A DNA stretch of 64,000 nucleotides from Eledone cirrhosa. Lineage: Eukaryota. The stretch is from NCBI GenBank assembly GCA_964016885.1, contig OZ024751.1, positions 51,770,001-51,834,000 on the forward strand, given 5' to 3'. The notes beneath the pieces were generated by a model, which saw nothing but the letters and a program-made list of their open reading frames with translations, was not told the DNA's origin and ran no database searches. This document shows, piece by piece, positions 753 to 54,640 of the stretch. The translations under genes were made by a program, and so were the position numbers. How positions within the stretch are numbered: the first letter of the stretch is position 1; each line of letters begins with the position of its first letter.

Positions 753-784
753 AAAATCGTCGTAAGAAGAATGAAGACATTTCC

Positions 785-13860: not shown

Positions 13861-14241
13861 CACACGTGTGTGTGTGTGTGTGTATACATGCATATATACA
13901 CACCTATACATAGACACATGCATACATTTGCTTCCTTGTGGTTGTCCAATGAAATTAACGTTTGTGACCATCTCCTTTATTGCTTCAGTTACTGACTGTA
14001 CATTATAATTCCTGTTGACTCATATTGGGTTTACAGACATCAAAAGTAAATGTTTTGCTTGATAAGGTCAAGTGTTAGGGCTGCATGCATGTGTCTTTTC
14101 CAGTTTCTGGTGCTGAAGGAATTCCTCATCCTCCATCTCCTTTTAATAGTGAGACTTTTAAGATAAATGACAGCTAGTGGTGTCTTCAACTCTAGAAGGA
14201 TTGAGGCTGATCCTCTTCCAAGTAGCACATTTGCACACACA

Positions 14242-18550
<4,309 letters not shown>

Positions 18551-25420: not shown

Positions 25421-25926
25421 CATCATCATCATCATCATCAGGTTTAGCGTCCGTGTTCCACGCTTGCATGGGTTTGGACGGGGGTTTTCCCACTTGAGGC
25501 AAGAGTGGTTGTCTTGCTCGCATAGGACTGTCTGGCGGGTTTTCTACAGTTGGATGCCCTTCCTAACACCAACCACATTTACAGTGTGGGGCTGGGAGGT
25601 TTTTACCGTGTTGCCTACACGGCCACATTACAGCGTGGACTGTCTGGCGGGTTTTCTACAGCTGGATGCCCTTCCTAACACCAACCACATTTACAGTGTG
25701 GGGCTGGGAGGTTTTTACCGTGTTGCCTACACGGCCACATTTACAGCGTGGACTGTGTGTTTTTTGTCGTGACACCTACACGATCTCATTTGTTTCGGCT
25801 TGGATGTTGTGGGACCAACATAACTTTACATTGAAAGGGGCGGTGTGGGTGGGGTGGAGGTGGTGGGACGGGGGTGTGTTTTGATAGAGATGCCTACTGA
25901 CTGTAGTAGGTTTTTACTTTGTATTT
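25421..25926 (-). mobile_element. RTE LINE 3' UTR-only copy, subfamily A, with internal tandem duplication
   Basis: Near-identical to 62207-62598 and the reverse complement of 57085-57468; the block around 25525-25750 is repeated twice. Confidence 0.85.
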
Positions 25927-28900
25927 AGTTGAGTGTATTCTATAAATTTACCAAAGGATCAAGCAACGAAAGAAAGGGAGAGTGGGGGCAAACACCACAC
26001 CCCTGTTTGAGCCAGGGAACAAAATGGTAAATGTGTTACTGCGGAGAATGGCAAGAGACACCCACCCTTTCCGATTTTAAGGAGGAAATAAGCATATCGT
26101 CGGTGACAAGCATTTTCTTCTACACTTATATCACCTTCATCATCGTTTAACGTCCAGTTTCCATGCTAGCATGAGTAAGAGGCAAGTTGGGTCGGGTGAC
26201 TGTGTCTCGCTCATATAGGACTCATATAGATAATACATTTTTATAAATAAGATTTGCGTGAGACACCTTTGTCTCCAGTGAATTGCGTGTATAGCTGAGG
26301 ACGTGGGTGTTGCCTGTCAAGCTCATTGTGGTGGATGAATTTTAAATTGTTAACATACTACTCATTTCGCTGATGTTTTAGGATGAGAGAAGTCATGAAG
26401 TGTGTCATTAATACATTCTTCAAAAGAATAACAATTGTTTCTACTTTGGGCACAAGACCAGCAATTATCCCAGTGCATTACTGGTACTTTATTGTATCGA
26501 CACCGTAAGGATGAAAGGCAAAGTTAACCTTGACGGGATACGTGGCAAATAAAGCGGAAGGAAATTTTATAATCTATTAAATTAGTATATTTCAATTTTT
26601 TTTTTAACTAAGAGTAATTTTATCATCCATTTAAGGTTGATAAAAAAAAGTACCAGTCTAGAACTGGTGTCGATTCTTCCACTATATCTCTTTCTCACAC
26701 TCTTTCTAGCTTTCTCTGGGAGAAATCTGTTGTATTCAGACTTGGAGAGGGGTGGGCTCCGTCAAGTTTTAAAAAAGAAACGTCGTGTCTCATACGAGGT
26801 CTCTAAAATTTCCTTACGAGTCACGGGAACCATACATACAATTTTGATTAAATTATTAAATTTGGGATTCTTATACTAGTTGAGTACTTGGGGTCGATTC
26901 TTCCTCTATAGAAAAAAATCGGCTGTGTTCAGACCTGGAGAGGGTTGGGCTCCGCCAGGTTTAAATGTGGGTATTGCGGTGCCTCTGCGACTCCACAAGG
27001 AGTTATGGGATCTTTATCCCTTATACTAATTGACCTTCCGTTTCAAAAACAAAGTCAACACGGCTAGATTTGAACGTAAAATGTTGGCAGCTGTTTAATT
27101 GTTGGAAATTTTACACAACTTACGTAAACAGATAGTGGTGATAAAGTTTAGAGGAGAAACGGAAATTCGTGACAAATTTCTATTTTATTATATTTTTAGT
27201 AAAATAAAAGTTGACTCACAGAAAGAAGTAAATAATAAATATTGAGTGTATAAACAGTGCGAGAGAGACCTAAATCCGGTTAAACAATAAACTGAAGCCT
27301 ACTTTCAATTGGATGTTGAAACTTCATACTGTTTGTTTTAAAGCCCTTCCCCATGAGCCATCGAGGGGGGCTTCTACAATAGCAACCATCTCCTTTAAAT
27401 TACACAACAGTCCCTTTTGAAACTTGAGGCTCGGTTAAATCATAATCTAATAAAATGAAAGTATTACTTGAGTTTCGATTAAGGCGCCACGTCATTTTAT
27501 ATCACTAAAGAAAATGAACTATCACCCTCAACCCACACATCTTTAAAAAGAAGAGCAGACCTATTATTTATTATCTATAATTATAACGTCAAGAATAAAA
27601 AGTAGACGGGATGGTAATAGGAGTGTTTGAATAAGATTGACCTAGGGAAAAACATCAACCAGATCTCTTTCTATATATATATAATAGTACTAATATTATA
27701 ATAATATTAATGGGAGCAAGTAAATAACAGGGTGTTATAACGAAGGTCATGCAAAACTGTTATATATAAACTAGCTTATGTATAAACTATTAATGTATGT
27801 GTGTGTGTGTGTGTACAGTGATGGGGCGAGTATTTTCATTTTCTTCAAAAGCAATCCTACTGTCGATGATACACGAGACAAGTAGAAGCTGAGTAACAAA
27901 ATAGACATTAATTGTTTCTACTTTTGGTACAAGGCCCAATTGCCCAGTGCATTACTGGTACTTTATTTTAATAAGGCTTTCGTTGAATAAATGTGTTTCC
28001 GTTAATTCGTAAAAAGAATTTTGGTTTCCTAACACAGATACTGTCGGAAAAGCAGAAGAGGTTGTTGACAGCTGATGAGTTATCTTCTAAACGGATTTGA
28101 AACAATAGTTAAACCACATCCATCATGAGAGAGAGAGCGAGAAAGAGAGAGAGAGAGAGAAATCAAAGAACGCCTACATACTCATACAATTTTTATTTGC
28201 TGAAAATATTTCATCCATGCCGTGGGGCAGGAATCATCAGAGCTTTATAAACAAAAATACAGTGCTGAGTATAAGCTCTACCAAGCTTAGTCACATGAAC
28301 ATTAGATATACAGTACACGCTGCGTTGTCTACGTAAATATGTATATAGATATATATATACTTCAATAAAAAGATGTGTGTTCTTTTATTTAGTGACTAAA
28401 GTTGTTTAGTCTCAGGTCAGCCAGGACAGTCGAACTCTGATAAAAAGTATTCCAGTTACGACCATCCCATTTTATTTTCAGATTTTATATGCAGGACTAC
28501 ATTATATCTTATACACCATTCCCATTTTTTTTAGATGGTAGTAATGGGATGATTTAATTGATATTTCTAGCATATCGAGGACCACATAGAAGTCCCCTAT
28601 TGACAAAAAGGCAACACATTTTTTAAGGATAAGAATATATCGTTGATCAAAACCGATCCGGTATATCATATTTATTTTACTGTGTCTGGAACGTACGAAA
28701 TTAAGACCAAGAGAGATGTAAACTCGTAATATAAAGAGACATAAATAAACACCAAGTAGTTTTTCTCTGGCGCCATAGTGACATTACATTATGCATATTG
28801 CTTCACAACACTTTGTTTAATTAGAATATATATAATGTATATCATTTGGATCATTAACACAAACACACAAATACTAAAGTTTGAATAATAAATATTTATT

Positions 28901-29308
28901 TACAGATAAAATTGCTGATGCATTTAGTAATTTAGTTATATACTGTTCGTCGCTATATTAATTTATAAAGAATAAACATTTTTTCTGTTATTTTCGTGAT
29001 TTTTCAAGAAAATAAACTTTTATTCATGAAGTAAATACACTTTTTTCTTCTTTTTAAGTATGACCAGCTGTGTACATTAGAGCCCGATATTCTAAATAAT
29101 TCTTTTGTATAGAAAAAAATACGATGAGATGAATCGTTCACAAAAATAATGCAATTGTTAACTAAATTAAACTTCTGCAATCATCGTTTTAATTGTTGTA
29201 TCTATTTTTTGTTTAATTTAACAAACTTAACAGGAAGACTAACGATATGTATATAATATAGTTATATATGTGTGTGTGTGTATATATATATATATAAATA
29301 AACCTTAC

Positions 29309-29821
29309 CCATCCGCCATGATCGTTTATCCAAACATCGATCTTCCTGCATCTAAACATTTTCAACAAGATATGGTTATACTGTTCCCATGAAAGCTCCT
29401 GACGCTTTGAACGTTGATCGTCGACCAAAACGGCCAACATAGTGAAAATCATACATAAACGACTCCAGTGAAAATTTTCACGATCATCCAGAATGGACTC
29501 CACTACATCGCTGTAGGCTTTTTCTATGGTCAAATCTTCATTAACTTCGTTTAATAACTGAGAAGCATTTTTTAACAAGGTTTCTTTATATGTATTATAT
29601 ATCTCTAATATTGTTTTTCTCATACATACAATAATATCTGAGTCAGGTGTCGAAACAAAGTGCCCGTTCTTAAAATTAGAAACGACGTCTTTGATAATTA
29701 ATGAAATTAGTTTTCGAATCGACTTCAATTCTACTACAGTGAAGTTTATTTCAGTGGACATTGGAGACATAACAGACATTGAGTTAATATTACAGAAGAT
29801 ATTCGTCAAAACAGAAGCCAT
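29309..29821 (-). CDS. Divergent Bcl-2-family protein, main coding exon (Mcl-1/A1/Bcl-B-like architecture); unspliced read-through would stop at 29213 (202 aa)
   Basis: Kozak aagATGG at 29821. BH1-like SILDDRENFHWSRLCMIF (cf. NWGRIVAL) and BH2 WINDHGGW, immediately followed by the donor TGG|GTAAGG (intron from 29308), the intron position known in BCL2/BCL-X/MCL1. The downstream exon was not located. Confidence 0.85.
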
Positions 29822-29904
29822 CTTGGGGAATATTAACTGATTGTCTGTTACGACGTCCAAGAGAAAATGGAAATTAGTATTCAAACTTTGAAAATATGAG
29901 ACCT

Positions 29905-30003
29905 GCTGACAAAATTGAATGGTAGACACGATTTTATATGACTGCTTTTTCTAGGAATAAGTACGGTTGTACCGTATTATATCAACTCTGTCTCTGATTG
30001 GTT
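29905..30003 (-). promoter_or_regulatory. Core promoter of the Bcl-2-like gene: CCAAT box, STAT/GAS site, TATA box, Inr-like start
   Basis: Minus strand: AACCAATCAG (30003-29994), TTCCTAGAA (29957-29949), TATAAAA (29938-29932), and TCA with A at 29907, 31 nt from the first T of TATA. Confidence 0.7.
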
Positions 30004-30440
30004 GCTTTATTGTATACGTACACTACACATATATATGTGTGTGTGTGTGTGTGCGCGCGCACACACATACGCACACATATATATATATATATATATACGA
30101 TATATTAACAAATGGAAACTATATTATAAAACCATATTTATTTCATTATACATATTTATAATAATGAAATTATTGTGTACAGTGCTCAGGTGCACTACAA
30201 CTCATCAAAGGTGCATGTATAGTACATAGAATAATGTACAAATGTCAGGAAAATTAACAGTGTATGAGTCATGATATAATAATAATAACAATAATGAAAT
30301 ATTGTGTACAGTGCCCAGGTGCACCACAACTCATAAAAAAAGTGCACGTACAGTACATAGGGCAATGCACAAACATCAGTAAAATGAACAGTGCACGAGT
30401 CATGATACACACATGTGTGCATGTGTATGGAAGGGGTACA

Positions 30441-33205
30441 TCAGGTGTAGTTTTGGCGTATTTCGGGAAGCATGAGTGTCTTAAAGGATGCAGTGTCTCG
30501 GCAGCTAACAACTGACGCAGGCAGTTTGTTCCATGCTTCAGCAACTCTGAGCGTGAAAAAATGTCTACGAAAGTCATGGGAGCTATGTTGTTTTCTGATC
30601 TTGTAGGCATGTCCACGTGTGTTAGACACATGGAGATCAAAGAGGCGCTCAGGGTTGCAATTGGCGAGATGGTTAAAAACTTTGTGGGTATTCACCAAGT
30701 CCATTGCCAGATGTCGGAGCTTCAATGAATCCATGCCCAGGGAAGCAAGGCGTTCAGAGTATGGTAGGTGTCTGATGGAGGGTATGCGCTTGGTTGCACG
30801 TCTCTGAACAGTTTCCAGGAGGTCAATATTCTGAGCAAGATAGGGGTTCCAGACTGATGATGCGAATTCCAAGTGTGGTCGTACCATAGCTGTATACAGT
30901 TTTAAATAGATGGCTGGAGAGCGGCTAACAAAGGTCTTGCTGAGTGATGCCAAGACACCCTCGGCCTTCTTGACAATCTTAGAGACATGCTTTGTCCAAC
31001 GCAAATCGTTGCTGACAGTAATGCCCAGGTCACGTTCACAAGAGGACTTTTTGATATCAGTGTTGTGGAGGGAGTATGTGGACGCTGGATTTTTCCTTCC
31101 AAAATGCATGGTGGTACACTTGTCCACAGCCAGCTTCAGTTGCCAGTCTGTGATCCATTGCTGCATTGTGTCCAGGTCTGATTGTAGGAAAGAGTTGTAA
31201 ATTTCAGGATCAGTCCTTTTGATTTCAAGGTACAGCTTGATGTCATCTGCATATTTCAGTACCGTGGCATTCTGTAAGTTGGCATCTATGTCATTAATAT
31301 ATGCCACAAACAAAAGAGGACCAAGAACAGATCCCTGTGGTACACCAGATGACATCTCATATGGTGAAGAATGCTGTCCTAGAACCGTCACTACTTCTTT
31401 TCGGCTGAGAATGAAGGATTTCAACCAGTCGAAAAGATCATCCCTCACACCTATTGCAGAGAGTTTTGCCATAAGTCTTTTGTGTGGCACAGAATTAAAA
31501 GCCTTAGCAAAGTCAAGGTAAACAACATCCACCCATGAGCCGCTGTCAGTGATCCGGGTGATGTCCTCAAGGAACTCGATAAGCTGATCACAGCAGCTGG
31601 AGTTAGGGATAAATCCAAACTGTGAGGGCCGGATGAGGCTGTGAGAGCTCCAGAAGTTCCAAAGTGTTTCTCTGACACAGGATTCCATCAGTTTGGCCAT
31701 ACAGCTAGTAAGACTGACTGGACGATAGTTGACAGGTGACATGCGGTTGCCCTTTTTGAACAGGGGAATGACACTGGCAGTTTTCCACTGCTCCGGAGTA
31801 GCACCATTGTTGAGACAGTATTGAAAGAAGAAAGAAAGCTAGCGCAAAAGGAAATACCTGCCACGTTTGAGAAGCAGGTATGTCACACCATCAAGACCAG
31901 GGGAGGCATAGTTGCGCTTATTCTTAAGGTGACGTCGCAACATTGCAGGTGTAAATTCCATAGTTGTTATGGAATTTGATGTTAGAGATGGTGGAGATGG
32001 TACATTCTGGTTTTCAACAGTAAAAATACTTGCATAGCACTCAGCAATGAGTTCTGCGCATTCCTTGGGATCGTCAGTGATCTGGCTTGTGTGGGGATTG
32101 CGAAGAGGACCAACTGGAGAGTGAGGTCTCTGCCTTGAATGAACATATTTCCAGAACACCTTACTGTCAGGATTGGTTGCGATGCACTCTTCAAATTCAA
32201 GCACTGCCTTCTTTGTCACTTGCTTGAGATGGTTAGAAGATTTATTCCGCTTTTTTCTGTTGGCATCTGATTTATGCAGTTTATATTCCCGTTCAGCGTT
32301 CCGACGTTCTTTCCTGGCAAGTCGGACCGCTGAAGTTTCCCAAATTGCACTTTTGGGGTGGTTATTTTTCCGCTTCCGTGGCACTGATGCTGCACACGCT
32401 ATCCATATTGAGTCCAGGATGCTCTGGAGTATAGTGTTCACATCTCCAGAGTTATACATCTCATGCCAGTTTGGGCGCTGTAGCTCAGTGCAGTACAAGT
32501 TCCAATCCGCCCTCTTCCAATCAAAGCAAGCAGATTGGAGATGGCTCTGGTTTTTGTTGCTGCCCTCAAGTGCCAGATTGGCAATGATCATAGCATGATC
32601 AGAGTCGCCTAGAGGTTCCTCAGTAGTACAACTGATAACCACTTCAGGAGTAGTGGTGAAGATCAGGTCCAAAGTGTTGTCACCTCTTGTTGGAGAGGTG
32701 ACTACTTGTGACCAGTTTGAGTCCAGCACTAGTTCAAGGAAATCGTTTGCACCTTGTGGCCAACGAAAGGTTTCCCAATCGATCTCAGGATGATTGAATT
32801 CACCTGCAATAAACACATAAGTGGCTGTTTTCTTGACAGCAACTCTGAGGATATCGCAAAGCTGTGTGTCCTGATGGTAGTTTGGGGGTGCGATAAACAA
32901 CACCAAGCAGAAGTGTTGACATGGTCATACGTATGTCACAGAAAAAAACTTCTTCCTGTGATTCGTTCAAATCAACGCAAGGAATTACCGAAAAGTTTGA
33001 ACGAACGTAGACCATCACCACCACCACGGCGGTTAATGCGGTCCTTGCGGAAAAGGTTGTACCCAGTAATGCTGAAAACCCCATCACAGAGTAAGGAATG
33101 TGCCCATGTTTCCGTGACTGTGATGAAGTCGGGGTCGATGCTTCTGACGTAGGATTCGAACAGATGTATCTTGTTGCATAAACTGCGAGCATTTAAGGAC
33201 AACAA
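30441..33205 (-). pseudogene. CR1 ORF2: AP endonuclease + reverse transcriptase, frameshifted
   Basis: LSLNARSL, TVTETW, GVVYRTP, PTRG.NTLDLIFT, SDH; NYRPVSLTS, DVVYLDFAKAFNSVPH, GVPQGSVLGP, YADD, RDLGI, VRPHLEF, VQRRATK. Confidence 0.92.
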
Positions 33206-33261
33206 TTTGTACCCTGCTCGCAGTTTATGATGGTGTGTAGAGGGTGGCAGGTTGTTCTGAT

Positions 33262-34536
33262 TTAGTTTCCCAGAGTTGTAGCAGTTTTTACATTGCCAGT
33301 TATTGTGGGTAGATCACACTCAGACCAGCTGGTATCTCTCTTCCACGTTTCACCAGCCTTGATAAACTTCCAGATCTGCCCATCATCACGCAGACTAAAA
33401 CTTTCATCTTGTGCTGAGTTCCGATTCAAGGAAGCTGCAGCACGTAGCTTTGGACGTACATGGGGTGGTAGGCCTGGGCGTGTTCGGAAGGTAATCCGAT
33501 TTTCACGCCCAGCTTTAGCAGAGGCCAGATGATATGAGGTTGCCTCTGCGGGGTCCGAAAAAGACAGCATGATGAGTCTGGGTTTTGGACCAGGTCGACC
33601 AAGGCGGAGAGCACCCTTTGGGGGAACACAGCCTAGGTCTTTGGCTGAGCTGGCAGCAAATGCCTGAAGATCAGCCTTGTCCTCTGGTACCCCAATGGCA
33701 ATCACTTCATGGTAGCAGATTCCGCAGTCTTTTCAGTCTTTTCAGCAAGAGGTACAGGGAGATTCTTTAGCAAGGCATTCCGATAAGACCCCTTATTGTG
33801 GGGTCCTACCCGAATGCTTGCCTTTATTCCTGTAACTTCCCTTCTCAAAGCAGAAATCATTAGTTGCAATTCCGCAAAATCTGTACTGGTCGATTGTTGT
33901 TGTTGTTGCTGTTGTTGTTGTTGGTGATGATGATGTTCCTCCACGGGAATGGCAGGGGAAGACACAGTCGCAGGTTGTTCCTGTTGTTGTTGCTGTTGTT
34001 GGTGATGAGGATGTTCCTCCACGGGAATGGTAGGGGAAGACACAGTCACCAGTTGTTGGTGTCGGGATGTACTGGGAGCGGAAGACATGGGTTGTTGTTG
34101 TTTCTGATGTTCTCCCACAGGAATAGCAGTAGAAGCCAGTGTCATAGGTTTTTGCCGTTGTTCAGTAACAATGGTAGAGGAAGACACAGTCATTGGTTTT
34201 TGTTGTTGTTTTTGTTTTTCAATAACATTAGTGGAGGCAGGCACACAGGCCAGCTACTGAAAGGACCAGGATTTTAGCTGGACCATCTCCCATATTCCAT
34301 CCATCATAGCATTATGATGTCTCTTTTTGGGGCCTGGGATCCTCCGGAAGCCTGTGGCGCATTGAAGGCAGACAGGTTCCACATTCGATCCAGCGATTAC
34401 GGAACGAGTTTTCGGGTTCCGCACAGATATGGCAGATGTGGTTTTCTGGGCAATGTTCTATTTTGGGACATCGACCGGTTTTGTCGCATATTTCATCGAT
34501 GGATATCACCATGGCAATTTTGTTATTTCTACCCAT
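33262..34536 (-). pseudogene. CR1 ORF1 (PHD-like finger, Q/H-rich repeats, coiled coil, RRM-like domain), frameshifted
   Basis: CHICAEP..RWIECGTC; repeated TVSSP(A/T)IPVEEH..QQQ units; LQLMISALRREVTGIK; IAIGVPE and RLGRPGPKPRLIMLSF. Confidence 0.75.
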
Positions 34537-36239
34537 CGGTAGAAAAACACAGAATGTAAACAATATAGGTTTAGCGCACTTGATTACGATAGAAATAAAA
34601 TGTCTGTTTTTTTGTGTATTTTGTTTCCATTTTCCTAAATGTTGTGTGTGTACAGAAGAGTCTGTGCATGTAAACAAATAAATATGCTGCGTAAGTTAAA
34701 TGAAACGTACTGTAGAAGGCAGTTGTTTATTAACAGCGAAATAACGTTTTTTTTTCCTGATACTGCTTCTTTATAATAAACTTTCAATAATATTTTTTTC
34801 AAATTATTAACTTTCAGCTGCTAGTATATATATATAATTAAAAGGTGTATGTGGGTTAGAAGCGAAGTCAATGTTAAGAAATATTTTACCAATGTAAATT
34901 GGTAAAATTGGCCGGTATAGTGTCTCACACGAAATAGTGTGGTTTCTTTTCACGTGTGTGTATATGCATATGGTATGTATCTGTATATAAATCTGTGTTA
35001 TATTGTTGTTTATATGTTTTGTGGAGTACTTACTGCGATCCTTAAGGAATGTAGTGATTTGTTTTGTTTTTTTCCTTTTTCCCCGTCCATGTCCACACGT
35101 GGTTTGTTGGCGAAAATCAAGTCAAATTATATATACTTCGTTAAGATAATTCTATCTTGAAACTGGTACTAGTTGTCAGGGAACAGTCAAAGTAATTGTA
35201 ATAATGAATATTGTAATCCATCTGACATGTGTTTAAAGGGCAGTTTTTGGTGAAAATATTATATTTTGTTTGGTCAAGACGTGGTCAAGCGACCTTCCTT
35301 GTCGCCATTTTGGCCGGATATTTCAAGGACACCAAGTTAAATTATGGTGTGCTTTCATCAGATAAAATATAATATAGAGCAGTTTTATCCGGGAGCTTCC
35401 AACAGTAATGGTCGCATTCTTTAAGGGTATGTCAATATTTATTTATAAAACTGCTCTATATTATATTTTATCTGATGAAAGCACTCCATAATTTAACTTG
35501 GTGTCCTTGAAATATGTATAATGAAATAAATATGGTTTTATAAATATAGTTTCCATTTGTTAATATATCGTATTTTTACTCCAATAATTTGTTGAGTGCT
35601 TTATATCAGTTATAAAAATATTTGCTTGTTGTAGCCCAACAATTTAAATAGAACTTCTATATATATATATATAGAGAGAGAGAGAGGGGGGGGGAGACAG
35701 GCAGAGAGAGAGACCGACCATTCGATGAATGGGGAAATGCAGAGTGGGTATAAAGATATGTAAAACCCGAACGCTTGAAGTTAGACATGGTCTTACAGCT
35801 TTAAGAAAAAAAAATAATATACAATAATTATAACAAACCAGACTGTTAGATATCGCCTAGGCTTGCCGATATATATATATATATATTATATATTATTATT
35901 GAATATCTAACTGCCTGGTTCGTTATAATTATTGTATTTATTTTTTAAGCTGTAAGGGAATCATTCTGTCATTACCATAACAGAAGTCCGATGAGCTTTT
36001 AATTCCAGAGTCGGGCCCGATCGATACAGATCGAACCTTGAGCTGATCAATCGCGAAACGCGCGTCACACCTAAATAAATATAACGAAAATGTAACACCT
36101 TGTCCATATTATATATATATATATATATTAGAGAGTCGAGGCCGACGGCTGAGCTCTTGCCATTTTAACAACAAATTCTATATATATTATATATATACAT
36201 TATATATATATATATATATATTGTATATATTATATATAT

Positions 36240-36323
<84 letters not shown>

Positions 36324-36749
36324 ACTAATTTCACACTTACCTAATGTGTGTGTATATATATATAACTAGTTTCACACTTACCTAATGTATGTATATATAT
36401 ATATATATGCAAGCATACTTGCACATATGCACGTTCACACACACATTGTGTATGTGTGTGTATTACGTCACATACATTCGTCAACAGTCAACAACACTCT
36501 GGTCTCATTGACACAGGTCAAATTAACTAGTTCACTACATTTAATGACAAAGATTTAAAGATTTCAACATTTTGTTAACTGAACGAGTGTAGTGTTAATA
36601 CTTAGTGTGTATATATGTTTTTGTTGTTGTTGTTTTTTTTGGGGGGGGTCAGTCAAGTCATTTTTAGTAGAGAAAAGCAATGAAGAATGACATGATGCTG
36701 AATGAAAACAAAAGCAATATATACAAACACACACACACACCGACCACAA

Positions 36750-37122
36750 CTAAATATGGAATGATAGGCGATGGGGCCCCGTCACAGCCCCCGGCAGACA
36801 GAATGGAGAAGGTGTTTCCCCGGAGGACGGCAAGGGAGATGCGCTGGAAAAGCCACTCCAACTCGCGGGGCTCACACCTGCGGCTGGCCAGCTCACTGCC
36901 TATGGTGGTGAGTAGGGAGGTAGCCCTAGGGCCGAGGACACCAGAAGTCTCCACTGCCAGGAGTACAACCGCAAAACCTGTCAGAGAGCGACCCGTATTT
37001 GTGGAGTTTAGCCTCCTCAGCCCGACGTGCAGCAGAACCCAGGTTAGTTGCAGACTGCACCAGGTTACGGCTGCAGAAAGTGTCAGTGCAAGTGGCATCC
37101 CAGACGAGGGGTTTGCCACCGC
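36750..37122 (-). mobile_element. CRE-clade LINE 3' fragment (same family as 59357-61830)
   Basis: LAVETSGVLGPRATSLLTTIG..ELEWLFQRISLAVLRGN. Confidence 0.85.
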
Positions 37123-37210
37123 GAACTATTGCTATACTGGATATTTCTCATAACTTTAAGTGAGTTGAAGAGTTTGTGTTTTTTGAATGGCTAAAATTAC
37201 TGTTTAATAT

Positions 37211-37690
37211 TTCTTCTTCTTCTTCTTCTTCTTCTTCTTCTTCTTCTTCTTCTTCTTCAGCCACTTATTTCTGAGAGGGTCATGGGGGCAGAGTCCTGAA
37301 ACACTCCTTCCAGCAGGTCCTGTCAGAAGCAACCGTCTCCAACTGATCCAGCTGGATCCCCAAGTGAGACCAACCAAGCTCATGGATGTTGTCCAACCAT
37401 CTTGCTCGGGACGGAGGAGGTCTACCCCTGGGTGTCCTGCCAGTTGGTTTTGCCCATAAAATATGTCCAGCGATTCTTTCCTGGGACATTCTAACCATAT
37501 GCCCTGAGTATCAGAGTTGTGATCTCCACCGGGAGTGACTCTCTGATCTCCGAGCTAAAGACTTTATTGAGTAATGTTACTCCAAAGACCCTTAGGAGGA
37601 ACCCCATTTCGGCCATTTGTATTCGCCATCATATTCTTTCAGTCATTACCCAAGTTTCATGACCATAGGTAAGGGTTGGCACAAATACTG
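37211..37690 (-). mobile_element. RTE-1-like LINE 3' fragment with (GAA)n tail
   Basis: ILWAKPTGRTPRGRP..RWLDNI..LG..ASDR..W; a TTC run at 37211-37258 abuts its 3' end. Confidence 0.7.
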
Positions 37691-38182
37691 AATTAACTGG
37701 TACTTTTTTTATCAACCCCTCAGCACCCAACACCTAAAATTTAAAGGTGGAGTTGACCTTGGCAGTATTTAAATTCAAGGCTATTAATATATATAAATAG
37801 ATATCACAAAGACTTTTACTCCATCTTTTTATCAATTGCACCAATTAAATTATTGATATATTATCAATTTTATGATAATTCTAAAATTAAGTTTTGACTC
37901 ATTAAATATTGTTTCATTATTGTTTTATTGGTTTTCAGTGAGGTGTATAATTTAAATAAAGTCTCATTAATTAATAGATTAAATAATTGTTTCTAGCATA
38001 GGCATAAGGCCAGTAATTTGAGGGAAGAGGAAACTCAATTAAATCAACCCAGTACTTTACTGGTATTTTATTTTCTCAACCATGGAAGGATGAAAGGCAA
38101 AGCTGACCTTGGCAAGATTTAAATTCAGAATTTAATTGGTAGTGGTGGCGGTGGCAGCAGCAGCGGTAGTAGTAGTAGTAGC

Positions 38183-38238
<56 letters not shown>

Positions 38239-39129
38239 CAGAGCAGCAGCAGCAGCAGCAATAGTAGTAGTAGAAATGCGACAAAGTATTTTGAACAATG
38301 GTCTAATGGTTCTGCCTAACCACTGGCCTATTCATAGATTAAATAATGACTGAAAACTCATAATTTTCTGAGTTAATATTTCTGGCAGAGGTTAAAAAAT
38401 AGGAATATGTAAAAACAGACATACAACAATGATGATGATGATCATGATGATAATAATTGTTTCTACTTTAGGCACAAGGCCAGCATTTTTTTTTTTTTTT
38501 TTCGCGGAAGGGGATCGATTAAATCGACCCCAGTGGCTCTCTGGTCTCCAAGCTATCGAGGTACAACAATGGGTAATATTTAAATTTTAAAACCATCCCA
38601 TTCATGCAACATAGAGGAAAATAGGACTTCAGGTTATTTCTATGATAAATAAGTCAATATCATGATATATGAAATATTTCTAATTTTAGAAAGATATATG
38701 AGGCAATTGAATAGATAATATAATCAGTGAGAATTTTGATTAGTGTTTATCCCTTTAACATTTATATGTTAACCCATGCTGGCATGGAAAACGGACGTTA
38801 AACGAAGATGATGATGATGATTACTCTATATTTACTATTGTATTTTCACAGTAAAGGCTTTACCTTACATAAATATCTCACATGATATTGAAACTATGAG
38901 ATTTTGATATTATTTATTTTTGAGAACAATACCAACATCAGTTGGTTTGAACAGAAAGAAGTGAGAGAATTCTGGCCGGATATGGCCGGTTTAAATGCTA
39001 AAGGGTTATACAGGATTGACATCAAATATATTCTATTGACATGGGTTGGATAGGTCATTACAAACCATGTCAGTTCTTAGTTGGAGTTATTGTCCACCTA
39101 GACAGGTCAGGAAATCACATATTTATTAT

Positions 39130-39345
39130 AAAAGGACGATGGATTGGCAGTATCGGTAGAGCGTCGGATAACATGCTTTGCAGCATTGAGTTACGGCCCT
39201 TTGCGTTCTGAGTTCAAAATCCCGCCGAGGTTAGCTTTGCCTTTCATCCTTATGGGGTCGATAAAATAAAGTATCAGTCACGCACCGGAGGCGATTAAAT
39301 CAACTTTCCCCTCCCCTAAATTGTGCCGAAATCAGAAACCATTAT
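39130..39345 (+). mobile_element. tRNA-derived SINE, representative copy (many others, e.g. 4840-4960, 44200-44320, cluster 47985-49375)
   Basis: Box A-like TGGCAGTATCGG, box B GAGTTCAAAATCC, central TTGCCTTTCATCC..GGGGTCGATAAAATAAAGTA (MetaSINE-like domain, recalled) and an ATT tail. Confidence 0.8.
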
Positions 39346-40214
39346 ACATAGGCATGTCATATATGCATTCATATATGCCTCTATTACAAACCACACTATG
39401 TTAGTGCCACTGCTAATTAATTGTTTCTACTTTTAGCACAAGGCCAACAATTATCCTAATGTATTACTGCAAGCCTACACTATATGCAAATGAGCATCTC
39501 TTTAGATATACAATATGCAATAGTTTAATTTGACTCAGTATGAAGAGAGTAAACATTACTGAAGATTGATAAAAATCCCAAAACACTTGTGTTTGATGTT
39601 CTCACATGGCTGTTTAGGTAGCTGTGACATGATCACAGCTTAAAATACTTACTCATGATGAGAAATATATACAGTGCTGGATTTACAATTGTGCTTAGCT
39701 GTGTTTAAACACAGGGCCCTCTTAGTCCCAAAAATATTTTACCTCTTTCCGGGCCCAAGTAAGGGGCCTCATAACTTAATTAGCTCAGGGACTCATTTGT
39801 TCTAAATCTGGCACTGCATGTAATATATGTGCTTATTATACATAAACATATTGTATATACTTTCGTATATATCTCTGTTGTGAGTCATGCTATGTTAGTA
39901 CTACTACCAATGTTTATATATTCAGCATGTGCTACTAATACACTCTTTCCTCTATTTATATCTATCCTATATTCCTTACTTCCTGTTTTATAAACCAATC
40001 TTTAAGCCTATCTTATAATATTCAGCATCCTTAATATAGATACTATAAGCATTAAGGTGAAGAAAGATAAAGACCATCTTCACATGCGTAGTTAGATAAC
40101 CGTCTATCTCTGGAAATTTGCCAGAAAGTCGTAATGCTTTTTTCACAGCTAAAAGCTAAAACCAACAAATACAGAGTTGTAAATAGAAAAACAGAGTACA
40201 ACATTTACAATGAA

Positions 40215-40525
40215 TGGAAAGCACTCCATCAGTTAATACAAGTGTTCCAGTTGATCCGATCAACAAAACAGCCTGCTCATGAAATTAATGTGCAAGTGGC
40301 TGAGCATTCTACAAACACACGTACCCTTAACGTAGTTCTCAGGGAGATTCAGTGTGACACATAATGTGACAAGGCTGGCCCTTCGAATTACAGATACAAC
40401 TCATTTTGGCCAGCTAAGTGAACTGGAGCAACGTGAAATAAAGTGTCTTGCACGCTACCGGGAATCGAATTCACGACCTTACGATCATGAACCAAATTCC
40501 CTAACCACAAAGCCACACGCCTTCA
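40215..40525 (-). mobile_element. Second tRNA-derived SINE family (CORE/V-like; related heads at 49630-49800 and 58285-58420)
   Basis: Minus strand GGCGTGTGGCTTTGTGGTTAGG ... GTGAATTCGATTCCCGG ... GCAAGACACTTTATTTCAC. Confidence 0.65.
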
Positions 40526-42335
40526 CAATGAATATAAACTCATCAACTAACCAGTGGCCCAGTACTGTATCACCTTGATTATTTCTGTATAATTTGTGAG
40601 TAGAAACATTTATTTTTCATGTTTCTTGGTTTGTGTTTCTTAAGAGCTATCAAGTGCCAACCATGACAGTCCAATACACATGAGATGGCCTACAAGATAT
40701 ATTAAGTAATTTATGCTACTTAGGTGACCTAATTGGTGGTGAAAGTAGCTATAGGGAAAATACACACATACATGTATACCTACTACTACTACAGCCGTCA
40801 CTTGCAATCAACTATGACTTAGTAGTATGTACCATGCTTTTGCAAAGGATTATAGGTTCCCATGCAGTTGCAAGCCAACATAGACAACCTCTCCACTTTC
40901 CCTCCCTTGATCAAACGGAACATCCAAATGTGAGAGCAGGAAAGAAAGCAGGCTGCACCAGTACTGGATTGGTACTTTCTTTATTGATTTCAAAAGAATA
41001 AAAGGCAAAGTGGACATCTGTAGGATTTGAACTCAGAATACAGAGACCCAGAACAAATAACCAATATTCTAACAACTCTGCCAAATCAATTTGATTTACA
41101 TACATGTATACACAAGATGCAACATCACCACAATTATTATTATAGACAATTATTTTATGTACTTATGAATGAAGAGCAAATGCTGGTAGTGTTTGAACAA
41201 AGTAATGTTTTTTTGGTGGCATGCTAATTTTCTCTGTATTGTTCTAATTTTAGAATATGCACTGCTGAAGCTAGTACAATCGGTTTAAGTGTGTAGAATG
41301 TTGCTAAGTTAAGAAAGGAGTTGAAGTTGAGGGAGCTGATAGGTTTCTCCTCCTTGTGTGTGAGAATGTGTGTAAAAGGCAAGCAGTGTTAATCACGTGT
41401 AGAGTGTGTGATACTAGATACTAGTAATAAGATATTGGGATTGAATGTAGATTCAAGGAGACTGGAAAGTATGGTCTAGTGAAAGTATAAAGTCAACATG
41501 TCTGAATAGTAAATGCAAGTGGACTGAAAGAACAGTTGGCCGTTAAAATTATCAGTTAAAGTAAAACAAACTACCTACACATTAACCCTTTAGCATTTAA
41601 ATCAGCTGTATCAGGCCAGAATTCTCTCACCTCTTTCTGTTCAAACCGGCCATAACTGGCCCCCCATACTGACTTTAAGGTATTGTTCTCAAAATAAATA
41701 ATATCAAAATCTCATAGATTTGATATTATGTGAGGTAAAACCTTTTCTGTGAAAATACAATAGTAAATATAGTGTAATGTGAATGTTAAAAGGTTAAACA
41801 TGAATGACCATACACATCCAATGTCAATATTGAAATAATTGTGTCTGTTTTTGGCACAAGGTCAGCAATTTGAAGGGAAGGGAAAGTCGATTAAATCCTA
41901 CCTCAGTGCGTTACTGGTACTTTATTCTATCAACTGTGTAAAGATGAAAAGCAAAGCTAACTTTGGCAGAATTTGAACTTAGAATGTAGAAAGTCGTGTC
42001 TAAATCCTGCAAAGCATTTTGTCCAACACTTAAACAATACTACCAATCCAGCACCCTCAACATTGAAATAATAATAAAGGTGTATATAAACCCAGAGCTG
42101 GTGCTACCATTAAGGCCAACTAGAGAACTACCTAAGGTGAAAACTTCAGAGATGTGCATTACAGAACTTTAACAATCAGTTTTATACAAATTTGTATAAT
42201 TAAATGAAATACATAATAATTTCCCGATATCAATAAATTAACTACTAAATAGCTTTGCTGTGAAGCATCATTGTAGAAATATCCAAAGCAATGGATAGAG
42301 CTGTATGGTTTGATGGCCTGTTACATGATGTGCCG

Positions 42336-42471
42336 GCGGACAGTGTTGTAGGAAATGCAGGCTCAATAAGGTTATTAGAGCGGACAGTGTTGTGGGAAAT
42401 GCAGGCTCAATAAGGTTATTAGAGCGGACAGTGTTGTGGGAAATGTAGGCTCAATAAGGTTATTAGAGCGG
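42336..42471. repeat. 44-bp tandem repeat, three copies
   Basis: GCGGACAGTGTTGT(A/G)GGAAATG(C/T)AGGCTCAATAAGGTTATTAGA starting at 42336, 42380 and 42424. Confidence 0.95.
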
Positions 42472-44427
42472 CCAGAGTAAGAATTATGAACAGCCTGTTT
42501 CGTCAGCTTGCTAAATTGTAAATTAACATGACGTTCCTGTCGAAAATCTATTTTCGAGTTAACGTTTCGCTTACTATCAGATACAGATTGAGAAGGAAAC
42601 GCATGCAATAATGAAAGTATTATAAAATAAAATTGATTTTTTTTTTTTATTTATTTAAATTTCAACTACATAATAGTAATTTACATCTTCGAAAAAGAAT
42701 TTTTGGAAAAATCTCACAAAAAAAAGGCAAACACAAAAAACCCGCATTATTAAGAAATTGATGCGGTACCAAAATCGACCTCAGTGAGAGAAGGAGGATA
42801 TGGCACATACATAGATAGATACACGTAAACATATACATGCATACGTAACTTGTCACGTGCCAGTGTGTCACGAGTTATCGTTCTTAATTGTTTGGTAGAA
42901 TTTGTCTTTGGTTGGTGTTTTTATTCATATATATGTCTTCCAAGCAACACATTATTATACTCTAACATTTTATATCAACCGAAAGGAATTTATACATCAT
43001 TCCTCCTTTACACAATCAATTAAAAGATAATCATATAACATATGTAAGTTGATTTGCTATTTTATAATTTGTATTTTAAATATCATATAGCGGCTATTAT
43101 ACATTTTGTATTTTGACAACCCACCTGCTTCGGTATGTCATTTAATATTTTTTGTATTTTTTTTTTTTTTTTTTCCTTCTAACTTTTTTTAACTATTTCA
43201 ATATTGAATGGAAATAGCTTTCAAGTGTAACTATGTTCGAAAAAAAAAAGTATAATTCTATTTATGTTATGTATGTACGTTTTTAAATTTAATTTTGTAA
43301 ATCAAACTTATTACCATATTTTCTGTTAATATGTATTATTATCCTAATATCTACCACCCTTTAAATATAGCTACGATTTATTTTCATTACTATTCCTTTT
43401 TTTTTTTAGAGAGATTCTATCTTAAAATCCTTAGCGATAAGGAACTAAATTAAGTTACTAGGAATTAAAAACCTTGTTTTGTCCGATCCACTTTTTACAC
43501 ACACACCTTGATATAACAACTTTTAGATCCGTTTTTGACGTGACCTGTTTTACTTATTCATCAATATATATATTTCTTTTCTTTGTGTGTTGATCGTTGT
43601 CTGATTACGAAACTGGGAAATTCTATGTATTTTTTATTTTATTAGATATTTCATTTGTAAAGAAAAACAAACATTTTAGATTCTTCTTTGTGTGTGTGGG
43701 TGTTTATTTTTTGGTGGTGGTGTGTGTGTGGGGGGGGGGTCAAGCATTCCAACAATGACCATCTTGGTCTTTGTTGGTGGGGGATGGATACATCTAGGAT
43801 TACATAGTCAGTGTGTGCTTCCATTTTTTAAGAAGACAATGTGATTTGAGGGAGATTTGGTGGCTATTTCTAACAAGTCGAGGATAGAGTATGACTTGAG
43901 AGAGATTTGGTTGCTATTTCTAGCAAGTCGTGTTATCTCATAGAAGCTCCTTTTTATCTGTCAGCCAGCCCCTTGTCCGAAGTCATAGCGTGCTCAAAAG
44001 ACACAAGCAACAAGATACCCCTAGCCCTCTACAAGGAAAACATGTAAAATGGTAATAGATAGATTTTAGATTCTTTATGTTTCATCCTTACAACCTGTCT
44101 TACATCTTCCTAAACTGTAATAAATTGCTACTTTAGTAGATAGTTCGATACTGAAACGATGAAGAAACAAAGGTGATTTACTATCATTATTATCTACGAT
44201 CTGAGTTCAAATCCCGCCGAGGTTGACTTTGCCTTTCATCCTTACGTGGTCGATAAAATAAAGTACCAGTAATGCACTGGGTAATTGCTGGCCTTGTGCC
44301 TAAAGTAGAAACAATTATTATCTATTTGCTTCCTTGAGTAGAATTATAATTTAAACAACCAGGAGAACGATGTTAAGATCCAGGAAACCTTTCATTTATG
44401 AGCTGTTTCTGAATCTCTACGAAACCT

Positions 44428-44945
44428 TAACCCTTTTGTTGCCGTATTTCTAATGAAATGTACCGCCATCATCATCATCATCGTTTAACTTCTGTTTACC
44501 CAGTTAGAGTTGGACAAGTTGTCACAGACTATGTCAGTACCTAATTGGAGCTACTGCAAGAGAAACGCCAGTCAATCATGGCTCCAACACAAAGGAAGTC
44601 ATCATGCATTCGAATTAATTTAATTAATGAAGGATTTATTAAAATTGTAAGTTATTTAGATGGTTAAAAGGGGCAGTATTGGTTCCGACTCTCTACATTC
44701 TGAATTCAAATCCCGCCGGGGTTAACTTGGCCAAGTACTGGGGCTAATATAATCTGCTTCCTCTTCCCACTAAATTGCTGCCTTTATGCCAAAACTAGAA
44801 ACGTTTTATTTTTATGGTATTTGTAACTTAACAGAAGGTTCTTATATCAAATTATGCTAGATTATAATTTGAATAGAAACCCTTTAAAATACCTTTTTCG
44901 TAGAACCAGAGGTTGTTTTGGGTGGGTTGGTATCAAAAGGGTTAA
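44428..44945. mobile_element. Second piggyBac-type MITE family with nested SINE pieces (decayed inverted copy ~58815-59255)
   Basis: TTAA|CCCTTTTGTTGCC ... GGTATCAAAAGGG|TTAA. Confidence 0.65.
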
Positions 44946-45878
44946 GTGCAACCTACAATAGACTACTGTTCACATCTCTTGAAATATGCTGCTGCTTCAT
45001 ATAAAAACATTCTACATTGAAATACTCTCCAAACATGATTCCCTTACCAATACATTACAATCAGGCATCAAACTAGCAGATTCATTAGAGCTGAGCACAA
45101 AATGCCTGGCTCTCTGTGCACTGAGTTCAAATTCCACCCATCAAACCCAACTTTGCCTTCCATTCTTTATGGGGTTGATAGAATAAAGTATCAGTCTAGG
45201 GTGGTGGAATTGTTAGAGAATCAAAAGAAATGTTTCTGTTCTTTGAATTCTGAGTTTAAATACTGCCATTTAGGTTGTAGATTTAATAACACCATCTCCT
45301 GGCTCTTGGGTGATAGACTTAATCCTTCACTTAGTTTAACACCACTACCTGGTTCTTGGATGGTAGATTTAATCCATCACCTGGTTTAACACCACCAATT
45401 GGTCCTTTGATGGTAAACTTAATCTATCATCTAGTTTAACATCACCACCTAGCCCCTGGGTGGTACATTTAATCTGTCACCTTGTTTAACACCATCACCC
45501 CGCCCTTTGGTGCCTCTAACAGAATCCACTCTGTGGCCCTCCTTTTCTGAACTAGCAAAGTGCATGTGTGATGCCCAAGTTTCTTGCATCATGCGTAATG
45601 TCCCTCACCACACTGAACACTTTGAACAATCCTTATATGGTGGGATTTGAGAGAAATTTGACTACAATTTCCAACTGGTCAAATCTGGTCCTCCAGGCCT
45701 TACGTTAACCATTGGACCCAGTCCACAGCCAAAAGTTACCAAATAAAAAAAATGTTAAAAATCAAAAATAGACTTGGGTTTGGTTCAGTTAACAACAAAT
45801 AGTTGCCGTGTTCCTAAAATAAAATAAACACAGTTATTGTATATTTTCTAACACTTGTTTCTTTTATTATTTTCACAG

Positions 45879-45932
45879 ATTTTGAAAGATTTTCAAGTGT
45901 AAAGAAAAAAAAGCTTTTCAGAAAAACTTTTG
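45879..45932 (+). other. Putative 5' UTR exon of the BH3-only candidate
   Basis: Acceptor TTTCTTTTATTATTTTCACAG| and donor TTTG|GTAAAT, 340 nt upstream of the coding-exon acceptor. Confidence 0.4.
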
Positions 45933-46324
45933 GTAAATAAAGATATATTACAAAATTTTCTCTTGAATCTAATTTTTAAGCCAAAGAGCAACAATTTTTA
46001 ACACTTTTAAGATGGGTTGCCCAATCTATTAACCCTGCTAGTTTTGTGTGTTGAAGAAAGTAAATCTTTTCAAGAATTATATATTAGATGCAGTTAAATT
46101 ATTAGTTCTGGTTAAAAGGTTTGAATTGTGTTTGAGTTTAATCTGTGTTATTAATGACTTTTCACCACTATGACCTCTCTTAAATATTCCTAAACTTTAA
46201 TATATTGCAAGAAATAATGTAAGCTTCATTTATATTCTATATTGTTATTCTATTTCTTTCTATGTTTTGCAGTGTTGACATTTGAATATTGTGTGAAGAA
46301 TATATATAATATATATACACATAT

Positions 46325-46600
46325 ATGTCTGGACAAAATTGTTACGCGTGTTCTTCACAAATGGCTAATCCACCTGAACCAAGTATGATGATTGAAGTTG
46401 CAAATCCTGGAAATAGTTCCGAATCCAGTCCAGATGTTGACTTATATGACCAATGTGGTCAGATTCTCCGTCTCCTGGGCGACAGTTTCTATTGGATGAC
46501 CTGTGGCAGAAAACTTCAGCTGATTGCTGATAAGTTTCATTGCGTACAGGTATTATTCCGCTTAACCTTGCAGGATGCCTTGACCCGTTCACAAATTTAA
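46325..46600 (+). CDS. Candidate BH3-only protein with two tandem BH3 motifs (BMF-like); may splice out after 46549
   Basis: Strong acceptor (TTTCTTTCTATGTTTTGCAG|, exon from 46273) and in-frame stops before the ATG. P/S/E-rich N-terminus, then CGQILRLLGDSF (46454-46489) and CGRKLQLIADKF (46502-46537). Possible donor CAG|GTATTA at 46550. Confidence 0.75.
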   Translation: MSGQNCYACSSQMANPPEPSMMIEVANPGNSSESSPDVDLYDQCGQILRLLGDSFYWMTCGRKLQLIADKFHCVQVLFRLTLQDALTRSQI

Positions 46601-54162: not shown

Positions 54163-54387
54163 TTAATCATCCTGGCTGAAGTTAGTGCGTAGAGGTACAA
54201 TAGCTTGGGAGACATCTTTGGCCATTTCTGATTGAAGACTATTAGCTGCGTGGGAAAGTTGAAGTGCTGCATCGGGATGTGCAGTACCAGGTAATAGTGT
54301 GCACTCTCGCTCCAGCATTAAGGCCATTGCATCAAGTAACTCGAGAAATCCAAATGAAAGGGCAGCTCGTCGCAGACGGTTCAATTC
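54163..54387 (-). CDS. INTS14: Integrator complex subunit 14 (VWA9), last coding exon
   Basis: ELNRLRRAALSFGFLELLDAMALMLERECTLLPGTAHPDAALQLSHAA matches the recalled human INTS14 C-terminus (ELNRLRKAALAFGFLDLL..MLERECTLLPETAHPDAAFQLTHAA). Acceptor TTTTAATTTTCAG|; AATAAA on the minus strand at 54097-54092. Upstream exons were not found in the window. Confidence 0.92.
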   Translation of the reverse strand, partial: ELNRLRRAALSFGFLELLDAMALMLERECTLLPGTAHPDAALQLSHAANSLQSEMAKDVSQAIVPLRTNFSQDD

Positions 54388-54480
54388 CTGAAAATTAAAA
54401 ATTTCAAGAAGTGAAAAAAAAAATATTTTATGGAAAAACAATGTCTCTGATCGAGACAAAGCGAGAATGTATTTGAATGC

Positions 54481-54640
54481 AAATGAGAAAACTCATCGCT
54501 AGAACAATCCCACCTGGTAGGTTGCCTCTCTGTTGACTACTGGCTGCTGGTCTCTGTCCTCCAAGTCATTTTCGTCCATTGCTGTCTTTGACAGCATTTA
54601 GCTGTTTTAGCAGCTGTTCTAGCAATGAGTTTTCTCATTT
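54481..54640. mobile_element. 160-bp MITE-like element with 26-bp terminal inverted repeats
   Basis: AAATGAGAAAACTCATCGCTAGAACA versus TGTTCTAGCAATGAGTTTTCTCATTT (one mismatch). Confidence 0.7.

What the first reader, a model, noticed from the sequence alone, without database searches (positions are those of the whole stretch)
29213..46600. Putative linked apoptosis module: divergent Bcl-2-like gene head-to-head with a double-BH3 BH3-only gene
Seen: the only recognisable genes in the first 53 kb are a Bcl-2-fold gene (minus) and a small BH3-motif gene (plus), transcribed away from each other with mostly transposons in between. Known: BH3-only proteins are the ligands of the Bcl-2 groove and are hard to detect in invertebrates because only a short motif is conserved. 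Inference: this may be a co-regulated, co-evolving receptor/ligand (antidote/killer-like) pair, since both partners carry non-canonical interface residues (BH1 HWSR; BH3 IAD).
Basis: partly seen in the sequence, partly recalled or inferred. Interest (0 to 1): 0.88.

Follow-up and report, generated by a model that had tools for sequence, protein, structure and literature searches.

The report
Octopod double-BH3 gene beside Mcl-1-like paralog
An octopus-type genome carries a small conserved gene with two back-to-back cell-death trigger motifs, one closely matching human BMF, next to a fast-evolving Bcl-2-family gene; it is likely a molluscan BH3-only death trigger, but its neighbour is probably not its dedicated antidote.

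Summary
Both genes are real. It looks like a divergent Mcl-1/A1/Bcl-B-type paralog. The plus-strand ORF 46325-46600 (91 aa) holds two BH3 motifs 16 residues apart. These 28 residues are identical in O. bimaculoides and O. vulgaris (63-68% elsewhere). Consecutive accessions on one contig indicate the two genes are also neighbours in O. vulgaris.

A co-evolving private pair is not supported. 'IAD' is canonical: all 4 PDB matches are BMF peptides. The ligand is invariant while the neighbour's groove is only about 60% conserved and its BH1 glycine varies (Ser here, Arg in Octopus, Gly in distant relatives), a change linked to lost or altered BH3 binding. Start codons are 16.5 kb apart with a LINE between. 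More likely the BH3 protein antagonises the canonical NWGR proteins encoded elsewhere. Expression and binding were not tested. Its value is as a testable molluscan BH3-only candidate, although a 2022 figure already lists an O. bimaculoides candidate that may be this gene.

The parts
29309..29821 (-). Bcl-2-fold gene, coding exon 1 (171 codons, helices 1-7, degenerate BH3, BH1 HWSR, ends at BH2 GGW with a phase-0 GT donor)
   Evidence: Pfam PF00452; donor; AlphaFold2 pLDDT 76.7; best fold match zebrafish NRZ Z 17.2, rmsd 2.7, 138 aligned
25026..29308 (-).
   Evidence: spliced form seen in relatives P0009, P0017, P0021, P0007
24906..25025 (-). Bcl-2-fold gene, coding exon 2 (39 codons plus stop; helix 8 and hydrophobic tail, likely membrane anchor)
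   Evidence: tblastn 56% over 32 aa, E 6e-7; best 19-residue hydropathy 1.43
29997..35079 (-). Repeat block holding a LINE (endonuclease 31842-32924, reverse transcriptase 30444-31838, split by a stop); copies 80-97.6% identical within 200 kb
46325..46600 (+). BH3-motif gene, single coding exon, 91 aa (79 aa from the second ATG, as in one O. vulgaris isoform)
   Evidence: single copy in the genome search
46454..46489 (+). First BH3 motif, residues 44-55 (L-x-x-L-G-D-x-F)
   Evidence: no BH3 peptide matched it in the PDB search
46502..46537 (+). Second BH3 motif, residues 60-71 (L-x-x-I-A-D-x-F), BMF-like
   Evidence: 4 of 4 PDB matches are BMF, 10 of 17 residues identical, E 0.1-0.35
42501..43500 (+). 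CpG-rich patch with a donor-like site at 43044: candidate promoter and non-coding first exon of the BH3 gene (inferred, untested)
   Evidence: CpG o/e 1.45 and 1.06; donor scan; acceptor-like sites ending at 45878 and 46272
54166..54492 (-). 3' exon of INTS14, the BH3 gene's other neighbour (tail to tail, 7.6 kb)
   Evidence: PF20504 E 6.8e-32; further INTS14 exons in L015

Best explanation
The plus-strand gene encodes a small conserved protein with two tandem BH3 motifs that likely acts as a BMF-like BH3-only death trigger by binding the ordinary pro-survival Bcl-2 proteins encoded elsewhere in the genome, while its neighbour is likely a fast-evolving Mcl-1-type paralog with a weakened groove rather than its dedicated antidote. 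Shown: both gene structures, their conservation, the motif match, adjacency in a second species. Inferred: each motif folds as a helix into a Bcl-2 groove (Leu and Phe buried, Asp salt-bridged to the BH1 Arg), frees Bax/Bak and permits mitochondrial permeabilisation; the two motifs arose by tandem duplication of a 16-residue unit and now differ in partner preference, as mouse NoxaA and NoxaB do; the neighbour, like mouse Boo, has drifted toward reduced BH3 binding or a non-apoptotic role in octopods. The linkage is probably inherited gene order; why it first arose is not resolved.
For: BH3 region 28 of 28 identical vs 43 of 63 and 40 of 63 elsewhere (Fisher p 2.5e-4 and 5e-5, region chosen after seeing the motifs). 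Second motif matches only BMF peptides among 177,635 PDB sequences. Atlas neighbours with a family are BMF, PXT1, NOXA, BIM, BIK (scores 0.78-0.85, a lead only). The genome has NWGR proteins on C2 and C10 (my labels Bcl-xL-like and Mcl-1-like are from recall). An O. bimaculoides BCL-2-class protein bound the BID peptide in an assay (PMC8282340, passages). Neighbour: closest own paralog is the Mcl-1-like gene (49.3 vs 28.0 bits); closest PDB sequences A1 and BCL2L10; groove 30-33 of 53 identical among octopods; BH1 Gly replaced by S or R. Boo (SWSQ) binds no BH3 (PMC3542614, passages); Gly-to-Arg was judged unlikely to leave a functional groove (PMC8998228, passages).
Against: The neighbour keeps the BH1 Arg in 12 of 12 rows; Boo lost both Gly and Arg; a 2026 preprint reports that Bcl-xL G138A still binds BAD (10.64898/2026.06.23.733989, passages); six distant rows keep HWGR. 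So the Ser form may still bind. Adjacency is hard to call chance: with at least 6 Bcl-2-fold genes (plus this one) and about 25,000 genes (recalled), an immediate neighbour is expected at roughly 0.0005 per BH3 gene. The BMF matches are not individually significant (E 0.1-0.35), Pfam finds no family for the protein, the BMF HMM does not pick the locus from the genome, and the first motif matched no BH3 peptide. Some BH3-only proteins are anti-apoptotic (BNIP5 preprint, passages). The tree did not resolve the deep placement of the neighbour.
Confidence: 0.55

Rival explanations
1. The linkage is functional but not exclusive: the neighbour was, and in Gly- or Ser-bearing lineages still is, one real receptor for one of the two motifs, and the genes share regulation; the groove was lost secondarily in Octopus (Arg).
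For: Adjacency improbable by chance (estimate above) and kept in O. vulgaris; head-to-head orientation; HWGR in six distant rows and invariant Arg.
Against: Gene order among octopods is expected to be conserved for any neighbours (recalled); 16.5 kb and a LINE between start codons; the BH3 gene lies closer to INTS14; the ligand did not change when the groove did; whether the distant relatives have the BH3 gene at all is unknown (one search found only the Octopus cluster).
Confidence: 0.2
2. One reading: a private, co-evolving killer/antidote pair in which both interfaces carry matching non-canonical residues.
For: Adjacency and orientation; divergent BH1.
Against: IAD is canonical; ligand invariant across S and R grooves; each gene single-copy, with no sign of an expanding selfish cassette; no strict BH3 gene candidate within 100 kb of the two canonical paralogs.
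Confidence: 0.1
3. The small protein is real but is not a pro-death BH3-only protein: the motifs serve an anti-apoptotic (BNIP5-like) or unrelated helical interaction.
For: No family-level HMM match; single motifs occur at chance level; Cys at the first hydrophobic position in both motifs; conservation extends past the motifs; no basic or long hydrophobic tail seen.
Against: Two full consensus motifs in register, both invariant; BMF-only matches; 8 of the 10 best Atlas family hits share a family or clan.
Confidence: 0.12
4. The BH3 ORF is not a translated gene.
For: No transcript was examined here; the orthologs are predicted, 'hypothetical' proteins.
Against: Same 91-codon frame without indels in three species whose neighbouring gene is only 57-60% identical; conservation peaks on the motifs; two annotated isoforms in O. 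vulgaris.
Confidence: 0.03

Closest known systems
Vertebrate BMF (BH3-only)
   Same: Second motif shares 10 of 17 residues with the BMF peptide, including RKLQ, IAD and FH; acidic, Ser/Pro-rich N-terminus; BH3 on one exon.
   Different: 91 aa; two motifs; no PF15185 match; no clear dynein-light-chain TQT motif (motif recalled); orthology not shown.
Mouse Noxa and human BNIP5 (two BH3 motifs)
   Same: Two BH3 motifs in one small or disordered protein; NoxaA and NoxaB differ in partner (PMC2871139); BNIP5 has two candidate BH3 domains (preprint).
   Different: Here the motifs abut at a 16-residue period with 6 of 12 identical residues; no sequence match to Noxa beyond an Atlas lead (0.83).
Mcl-1 / A1 / Bcl-B (BCL2L10, NRZ, Boo) group
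   Same: Bcl-2 fold (NRZ Z 17.2), two coding exons split at GGW (PMC8998228), degenerate own BH3, tail anchor, BH1 Gly-to-Ser as in Boo.
   Different: His for Asn in BH1; Arg retained (Boo lost it); about 20% identity; a second, more canonical Mcl-1-like gene exists on C10; margins between subfamilies are small.
Candidate lophotrochozoan BH3-only proteins of Suraweera et al. 2022 (PMC8998228 Fig. 5)
   Same: The legend lists O. bimaculoides, bivalves and Lottia among potential BH3-only proteins.
   Different: I saw only the legend; the figure is not held and the supplement files are binary, so I cannot tell whether it is this gene. The passages read mention no tandem motif or linkage.
Human BCL2L13-BID neighbouring genes
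   Same: Two Bcl-2-family genes side by side without being a private pair (recalled; one search confirmed only the 22q11.21 position of BCL2L13).
   Different: BID has a Bcl-2-like fold; the gene here is a short motif protein.

Membership tests
BH3-only proteins | BH3 consensus (hydrophobic-small-x-x-Leu-x-x-hydrophobic-small-Asp-x-hydrophobic) | tested here: met
   Two motifs fit the consensus quoted in PMC2871139; Cys at the first hydrophobic position
BH3-only proteins | No other BH motif or Bcl-2 fold | tested here: met
   91 aa, no Pfam Bcl-2 match at E up to 10
BH3-only proteins | Motif under purifying selection | tested here: met
   28 of 28 identical vs 63-68% elsewhere, three species, protein level only
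BH3-only proteins | Intrinsically disordered outside the motif | not tested
   Composition suggests it; the fold job could not be run
BH3-only proteins | Binds a pro-survival groove and promotes death | not testable with these tools
   Needs binding and killing assays
BMF orthologs | BMF-type BH3 sequence | tested here: met
   4 of 4 PDB matches are BMF, E 0.1-0.35
BMF orthologs | Match to the whole BMF family model (PF15185) | tested here: not met
Multi-motif Bcl-2 family | Bcl-2 domain and helical fold | tested here: met
   PF00452 above cut-off; Z 17.2, rmsd 2.7, 138 aligned to NRZ
Multi-motif Bcl-2 family | Pro-survival-type gene structure: intron after BH2 GGW, tail anchor on last exon | tested here: met
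Pro-survival BH3 receptors | BH1 xWGR motif | tested here: not met
   HWSR here, HWRR in five Octopus-type rows, HWGR in six distant rows; Arg kept in 12 of 12
Mcl-1/A1/Bcl-B subfamily | Phylogenetic placement | tested here: inconclusive
   Best scores point there but margins are small and the tree is unresolved
Linked killer/antidote pair | Conserved adjacency | tested here: met
   O. vulgaris consecutive accessions; one further species only
Linked killer/antidote pair | Compensating change in both interfaces | tested here: not met
   Ligand invariant while the groove changes
Linked killer/antidote pair | Shared promoter, co-expression, specific binding and rescue | not testable with these tools
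   No RNA could be examined; complex prediction unavailable

The most novel reading that the evidence does not exclude
A bivalent BH3 protein: on one continuous helix the two motifs would sit 24 A apart and 160 degrees rotated, so it could clamp two Bcl-2-fold proteins at once, for example its groove-altered neighbour and a canonical partner. The locus, with INTS14 and a DNAAF4-like gene beside it (human chromosome 15 genes like BMF, BCL2A1 and BCL2L10; positions recalled), could be a surviving ancient BMF-Mcl-1 linkage that makes this a true BMF ortholog and dates BH3-only genes of the BMF/BIM type to the bilaterian ancestor.
Probability: 0.12. Interest if true: 0.8.

Novelty: new member of a known kind. 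Interest (0 to 1): 0.45.

Why it matters
Papers from 2017 and 2022 state that BH3-only proteins have not been identified in molluscs (PMC5550854; PMC8917759), and a 2022 review lists only untested candidates (PMC8998228). A short, invariant, BMF-like double motif in octopods gives two peptides that can be assayed against the octopus's own Bcl-2 proteins. That would test whether molluscs have the three-tier apoptosis switch and whether BH3-only genes are homologous or convergent across animals. The neighbour offers a natural Gly/Ser/Arg series at the key groove position. The killer/antidote reading, which drove the first score, is the least supported part.

Tried and rejected
A fold of the BH3 protein and Foldseek searches could not be run. 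First word-index search for the Bcl-2 exon found nothing; phmmer found 3 hits, one a spurious repeat protein, P0008, which I dropped. BMF HMM over the genome: 4 matches, all under cut-off, none here. An internal donor-like site after the second motif was considered; conservation continues in frame past it, so the single-exon ORF is preferred. Origin of the BH3 gene from the neighbour's own BH3 helix: no likeness seen (that helix lacks the Asp). A BH3 gene beside the other two paralogs: none within 100 kb each side (2 and 0 motif hits in short low-complexity frames; one loose double from a DNA duplication). Tree unresolved at depth, long branches. Earlier scan findings: none. Literature searches listed no paper on this gene pair; subscription papers are not covered, and the Fig. 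5 sequences of PMC8998228 could not be seen.
Full report
Setting. The window is G000:C11:51,770,001-51,834,000 of a 3.0-Gb genome. The named relatives of both genes are all Octopus proteins, so I call it an octopod.

The Bcl-2-fold gene. An open frame on the minus strand starts at ATG 29821 and scores 32.5 bits to Pfam Bcl-2, cut-off 31.4. phmmer over 1.84 billion representatives gave 3 hits, two real (58% and 38% identity) and one repeat protein that I dropped. Their clusters and a profile search gave O. bimaculoides XP_014772509.1, O. sinensis XP_029646365.1, O. vulgaris CAI9733863.1 and unnamed records about 35% identical, probably other cephalopods (inferred). The relatives located a second exon at 25025 (E 6e-7). 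Exon 1 ends at GGW|GTAAG (29309), exon 2 follows a pyrimidine-rich AG, and the product is 210 aa with a hydrophobic tail. This two-exon plan is typical of pro-survival Bcl-2 genes (PMC8998228, passages). AlphaFold2 gave pLDDT 76.7; the best of 48,161 chains was zebrafish NRZ (Z 17.2, rmsd 2.7, 138 aligned), then BOK (14.9). By sequence profile, mouse A1 (33.4 bits) and NRZ (32.7) lead other Bcl-2 proteins (29.2 or less) narrowly. A genome search found 6 other Bcl-2 matches from 7 candidates, a lower bound since it missed this gene. The one I label Mcl-1-like (C10) is the closest paralog, 49.3 bits vs 28.0 for the Bcl-xL-like one on C2 (labels from recall). The tree left deep nodes open.

The BH3 gene. 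ORF 46325-46600 encodes 91 aa, single copy. The one candidate found is O. bimaculoides A0A0L8HHP9 (78%, full length); its cluster holds two O. vulgaris isoforms of 91 and 79 aa. Residues 44-71 carry two BH3 motifs 16 residues apart, 6 of 12 residues alike, suggesting a tandem duplication (DNA 21 of 48). These 28 residues are identical in all three species, against 43 of 63 and 40 of 63 elsewhere. Single motifs are at chance level in 464 kb (3 vs shuffle mean 2.15); the double occurred once and in 0 of 20 shuffles. In 400 kb around two paralogs one loose double arose from a 36-base DNA duplication without a start codon. The second motif matched 4 PDB sequences at E up to 10, all BMF peptides (10 of 17 identical; E 0.1-0.35); the first matched no BH3 peptide. 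Pfam gave no family and the BMF model did not find the locus. Atlas neighbours with names were BMF, PXT1, NOXA, BIM and BIK at 0.78-0.85, a lead only.

The linkage. In O. vulgaris the accessions are consecutive (CAI9733863.1; CAI9733864.1 and 865.1) on a contig of the same length, so adjacency is conserved in one more octopod; orientation was not visible. Here the start codons are 16,504 bases apart. About 60% of the gap is repeated DNA, including a LINE beginning within 350 bases of the Bcl-2-like ATG, with copies up to 97.6% identical nearby. CpG-rich patches at 28.5-30, 36.0-36.5 and 42.5-43.5 kb suggest separate promoters, but starts were not mapped. The local order is EFR3, Bcl-2-like, BH3, INTS14, a CS/TPR gene I read as DNAAF4 (both domains under cut-off), BAZ1A (94 selected frames scanned). 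No BH3 gene candidate lies within 100 kb of the C10 or C2 paralogs. By a rough count, an immediate Bcl-2-fold neighbour is expected at about 0.0005 per BH3 gene (6 genes; gene total recalled), so the linkage wants an explanation, but three octopods share too much gene order to show selection for it.

Co-evolution. IAD is the BMF sequence and fits the consensus in which that position is G, A or S (PMC2871139, passages). HWSR is odd, but it is not fixed: five Octopus-type rows have HWRR and six distant rows HWGR; the Arg is kept in 12 of 12. The groove segment (residues 74-126) is 30-33 of 53 identical among octopods while the ligand has not changed at all. A private pair would be expected to show compensating change; an invariant ligand fits conserved partners better. 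Mouse Boo (SWSQ) binds no BH3 (PMC3542614, passages), and a Gly-to-Arg BH1 in Trichoplax was judged unlikely to be functional. Against a blocked groove: Boo lost the Arg too, and Bcl-xL G138A kept BAD binding in a 2026 preprint (passages). So the Ser form may bind weakly and the Arg form probably does not (inferred). An O. bimaculoides BCL-2-class protein did bind BID BH3 in an assay (PMC8282340, passages), so canonical receptors exist.

Mechanism. Most likely (0.55) the small protein is a stress-induced BH3-only antagonist whose two motifs bind the canonical pro-survival proteins with different preferences, as NoxaA and NoxaB do, and the neighbour is a Boo-like degenerate paralog. Rivals: functional linkage with real but non-exclusive binding (0.2); non-death or anti-death role like BNIP5 (0.12; preprint passages); private killer/antidote pair (0.1); not a gene (0.03). 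Geometry allows a bolder reading: 16 residues on one helix is 160 degrees and 24 A, so two grooves might be engaged at once.

What is known. Li et al. 2017 (PMC5550854, passages) and Witkop et al. 2022 (PMC8917759, passages) say no BH3-only protein is known in molluscs; a squid survey named only Bnip3 (PMC9389742, passages); a 2024 lophotrochozoan study treated multi-motif members in the passages seen (PMC11463336); a 2020 review cites flatworm BH3-only proteins (PMC7022251, passages). However, Suraweera et al. 2022 call them 'potentially present in Lophotrochozoa' (sections 7 and 8) and the Fig. 5 legend lists O. bimaculoides. The figure is not held and the supplements are binary, so this gene may already be a listed candidate. 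Seven searches listed no paper on the tandem motif or the gene pair.

Verdict. Real genes, ordinary family, useful candidate; the co-evolving pair is not supported. Expression and binding remain untested. New member of a known kind; interest 0.45.

Noticed in passing
L046:1-2046 minus, continuing into L045 (G000:C11 about 51.72 Mb): EFR3 homolog (PF21052, E 2.7e-27) in one open frame of at least 682 codons; EFR3 genes are usually multi-exon (recalled), so this may be a retrocopy or an intron-lost gene.
   Followed up: no
window 54166-54492 through L015, L017-L018, L021-L025: Neighbour order INTS14, DNAAF4-like, BAZ1A, then a possible CUEDC2-like exon in L027 (label recalled, no Pfam match). 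INTS14 and DNAAF4 lie on human chromosome 15 with BMF, BCL2A1 and BCL2L10 (recalled), a lead for ancient linkage.
   Followed up: partly
window 35310-35510 and 35790-35955: Two short inverted-repeat (MITE-like) elements seen by eye, beside the strongest CpG patch; also 30100-30160 is the reverse complement of about 35510-35570, flanking the LINE block.
   Followed up: no
window 3-2539 plus: LTR-retrotransposon-type pol region (reverse transcriptase, RNase H, integrase by eye), in two frames.
   Followed up: no
window 14000-18500: About 4 kb of nearly pure TA microsatellite (GC 0.1-15% per kb).
   Followed up: no
L005 (C11:30.94 Mb): A Bax-like exon whose BH1 also has Ser at the Gly position (THSR), so this substitution is not unique to the window gene in this genome.
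   Followed up: no
L090:7779-7928 minus: A 36-base tandem duplication that reads as two BH3-like cores in a 49-codon frame without ATG, about 57 kb from the Bcl-xL-like exon; taken as chance.
   Followed up: yes
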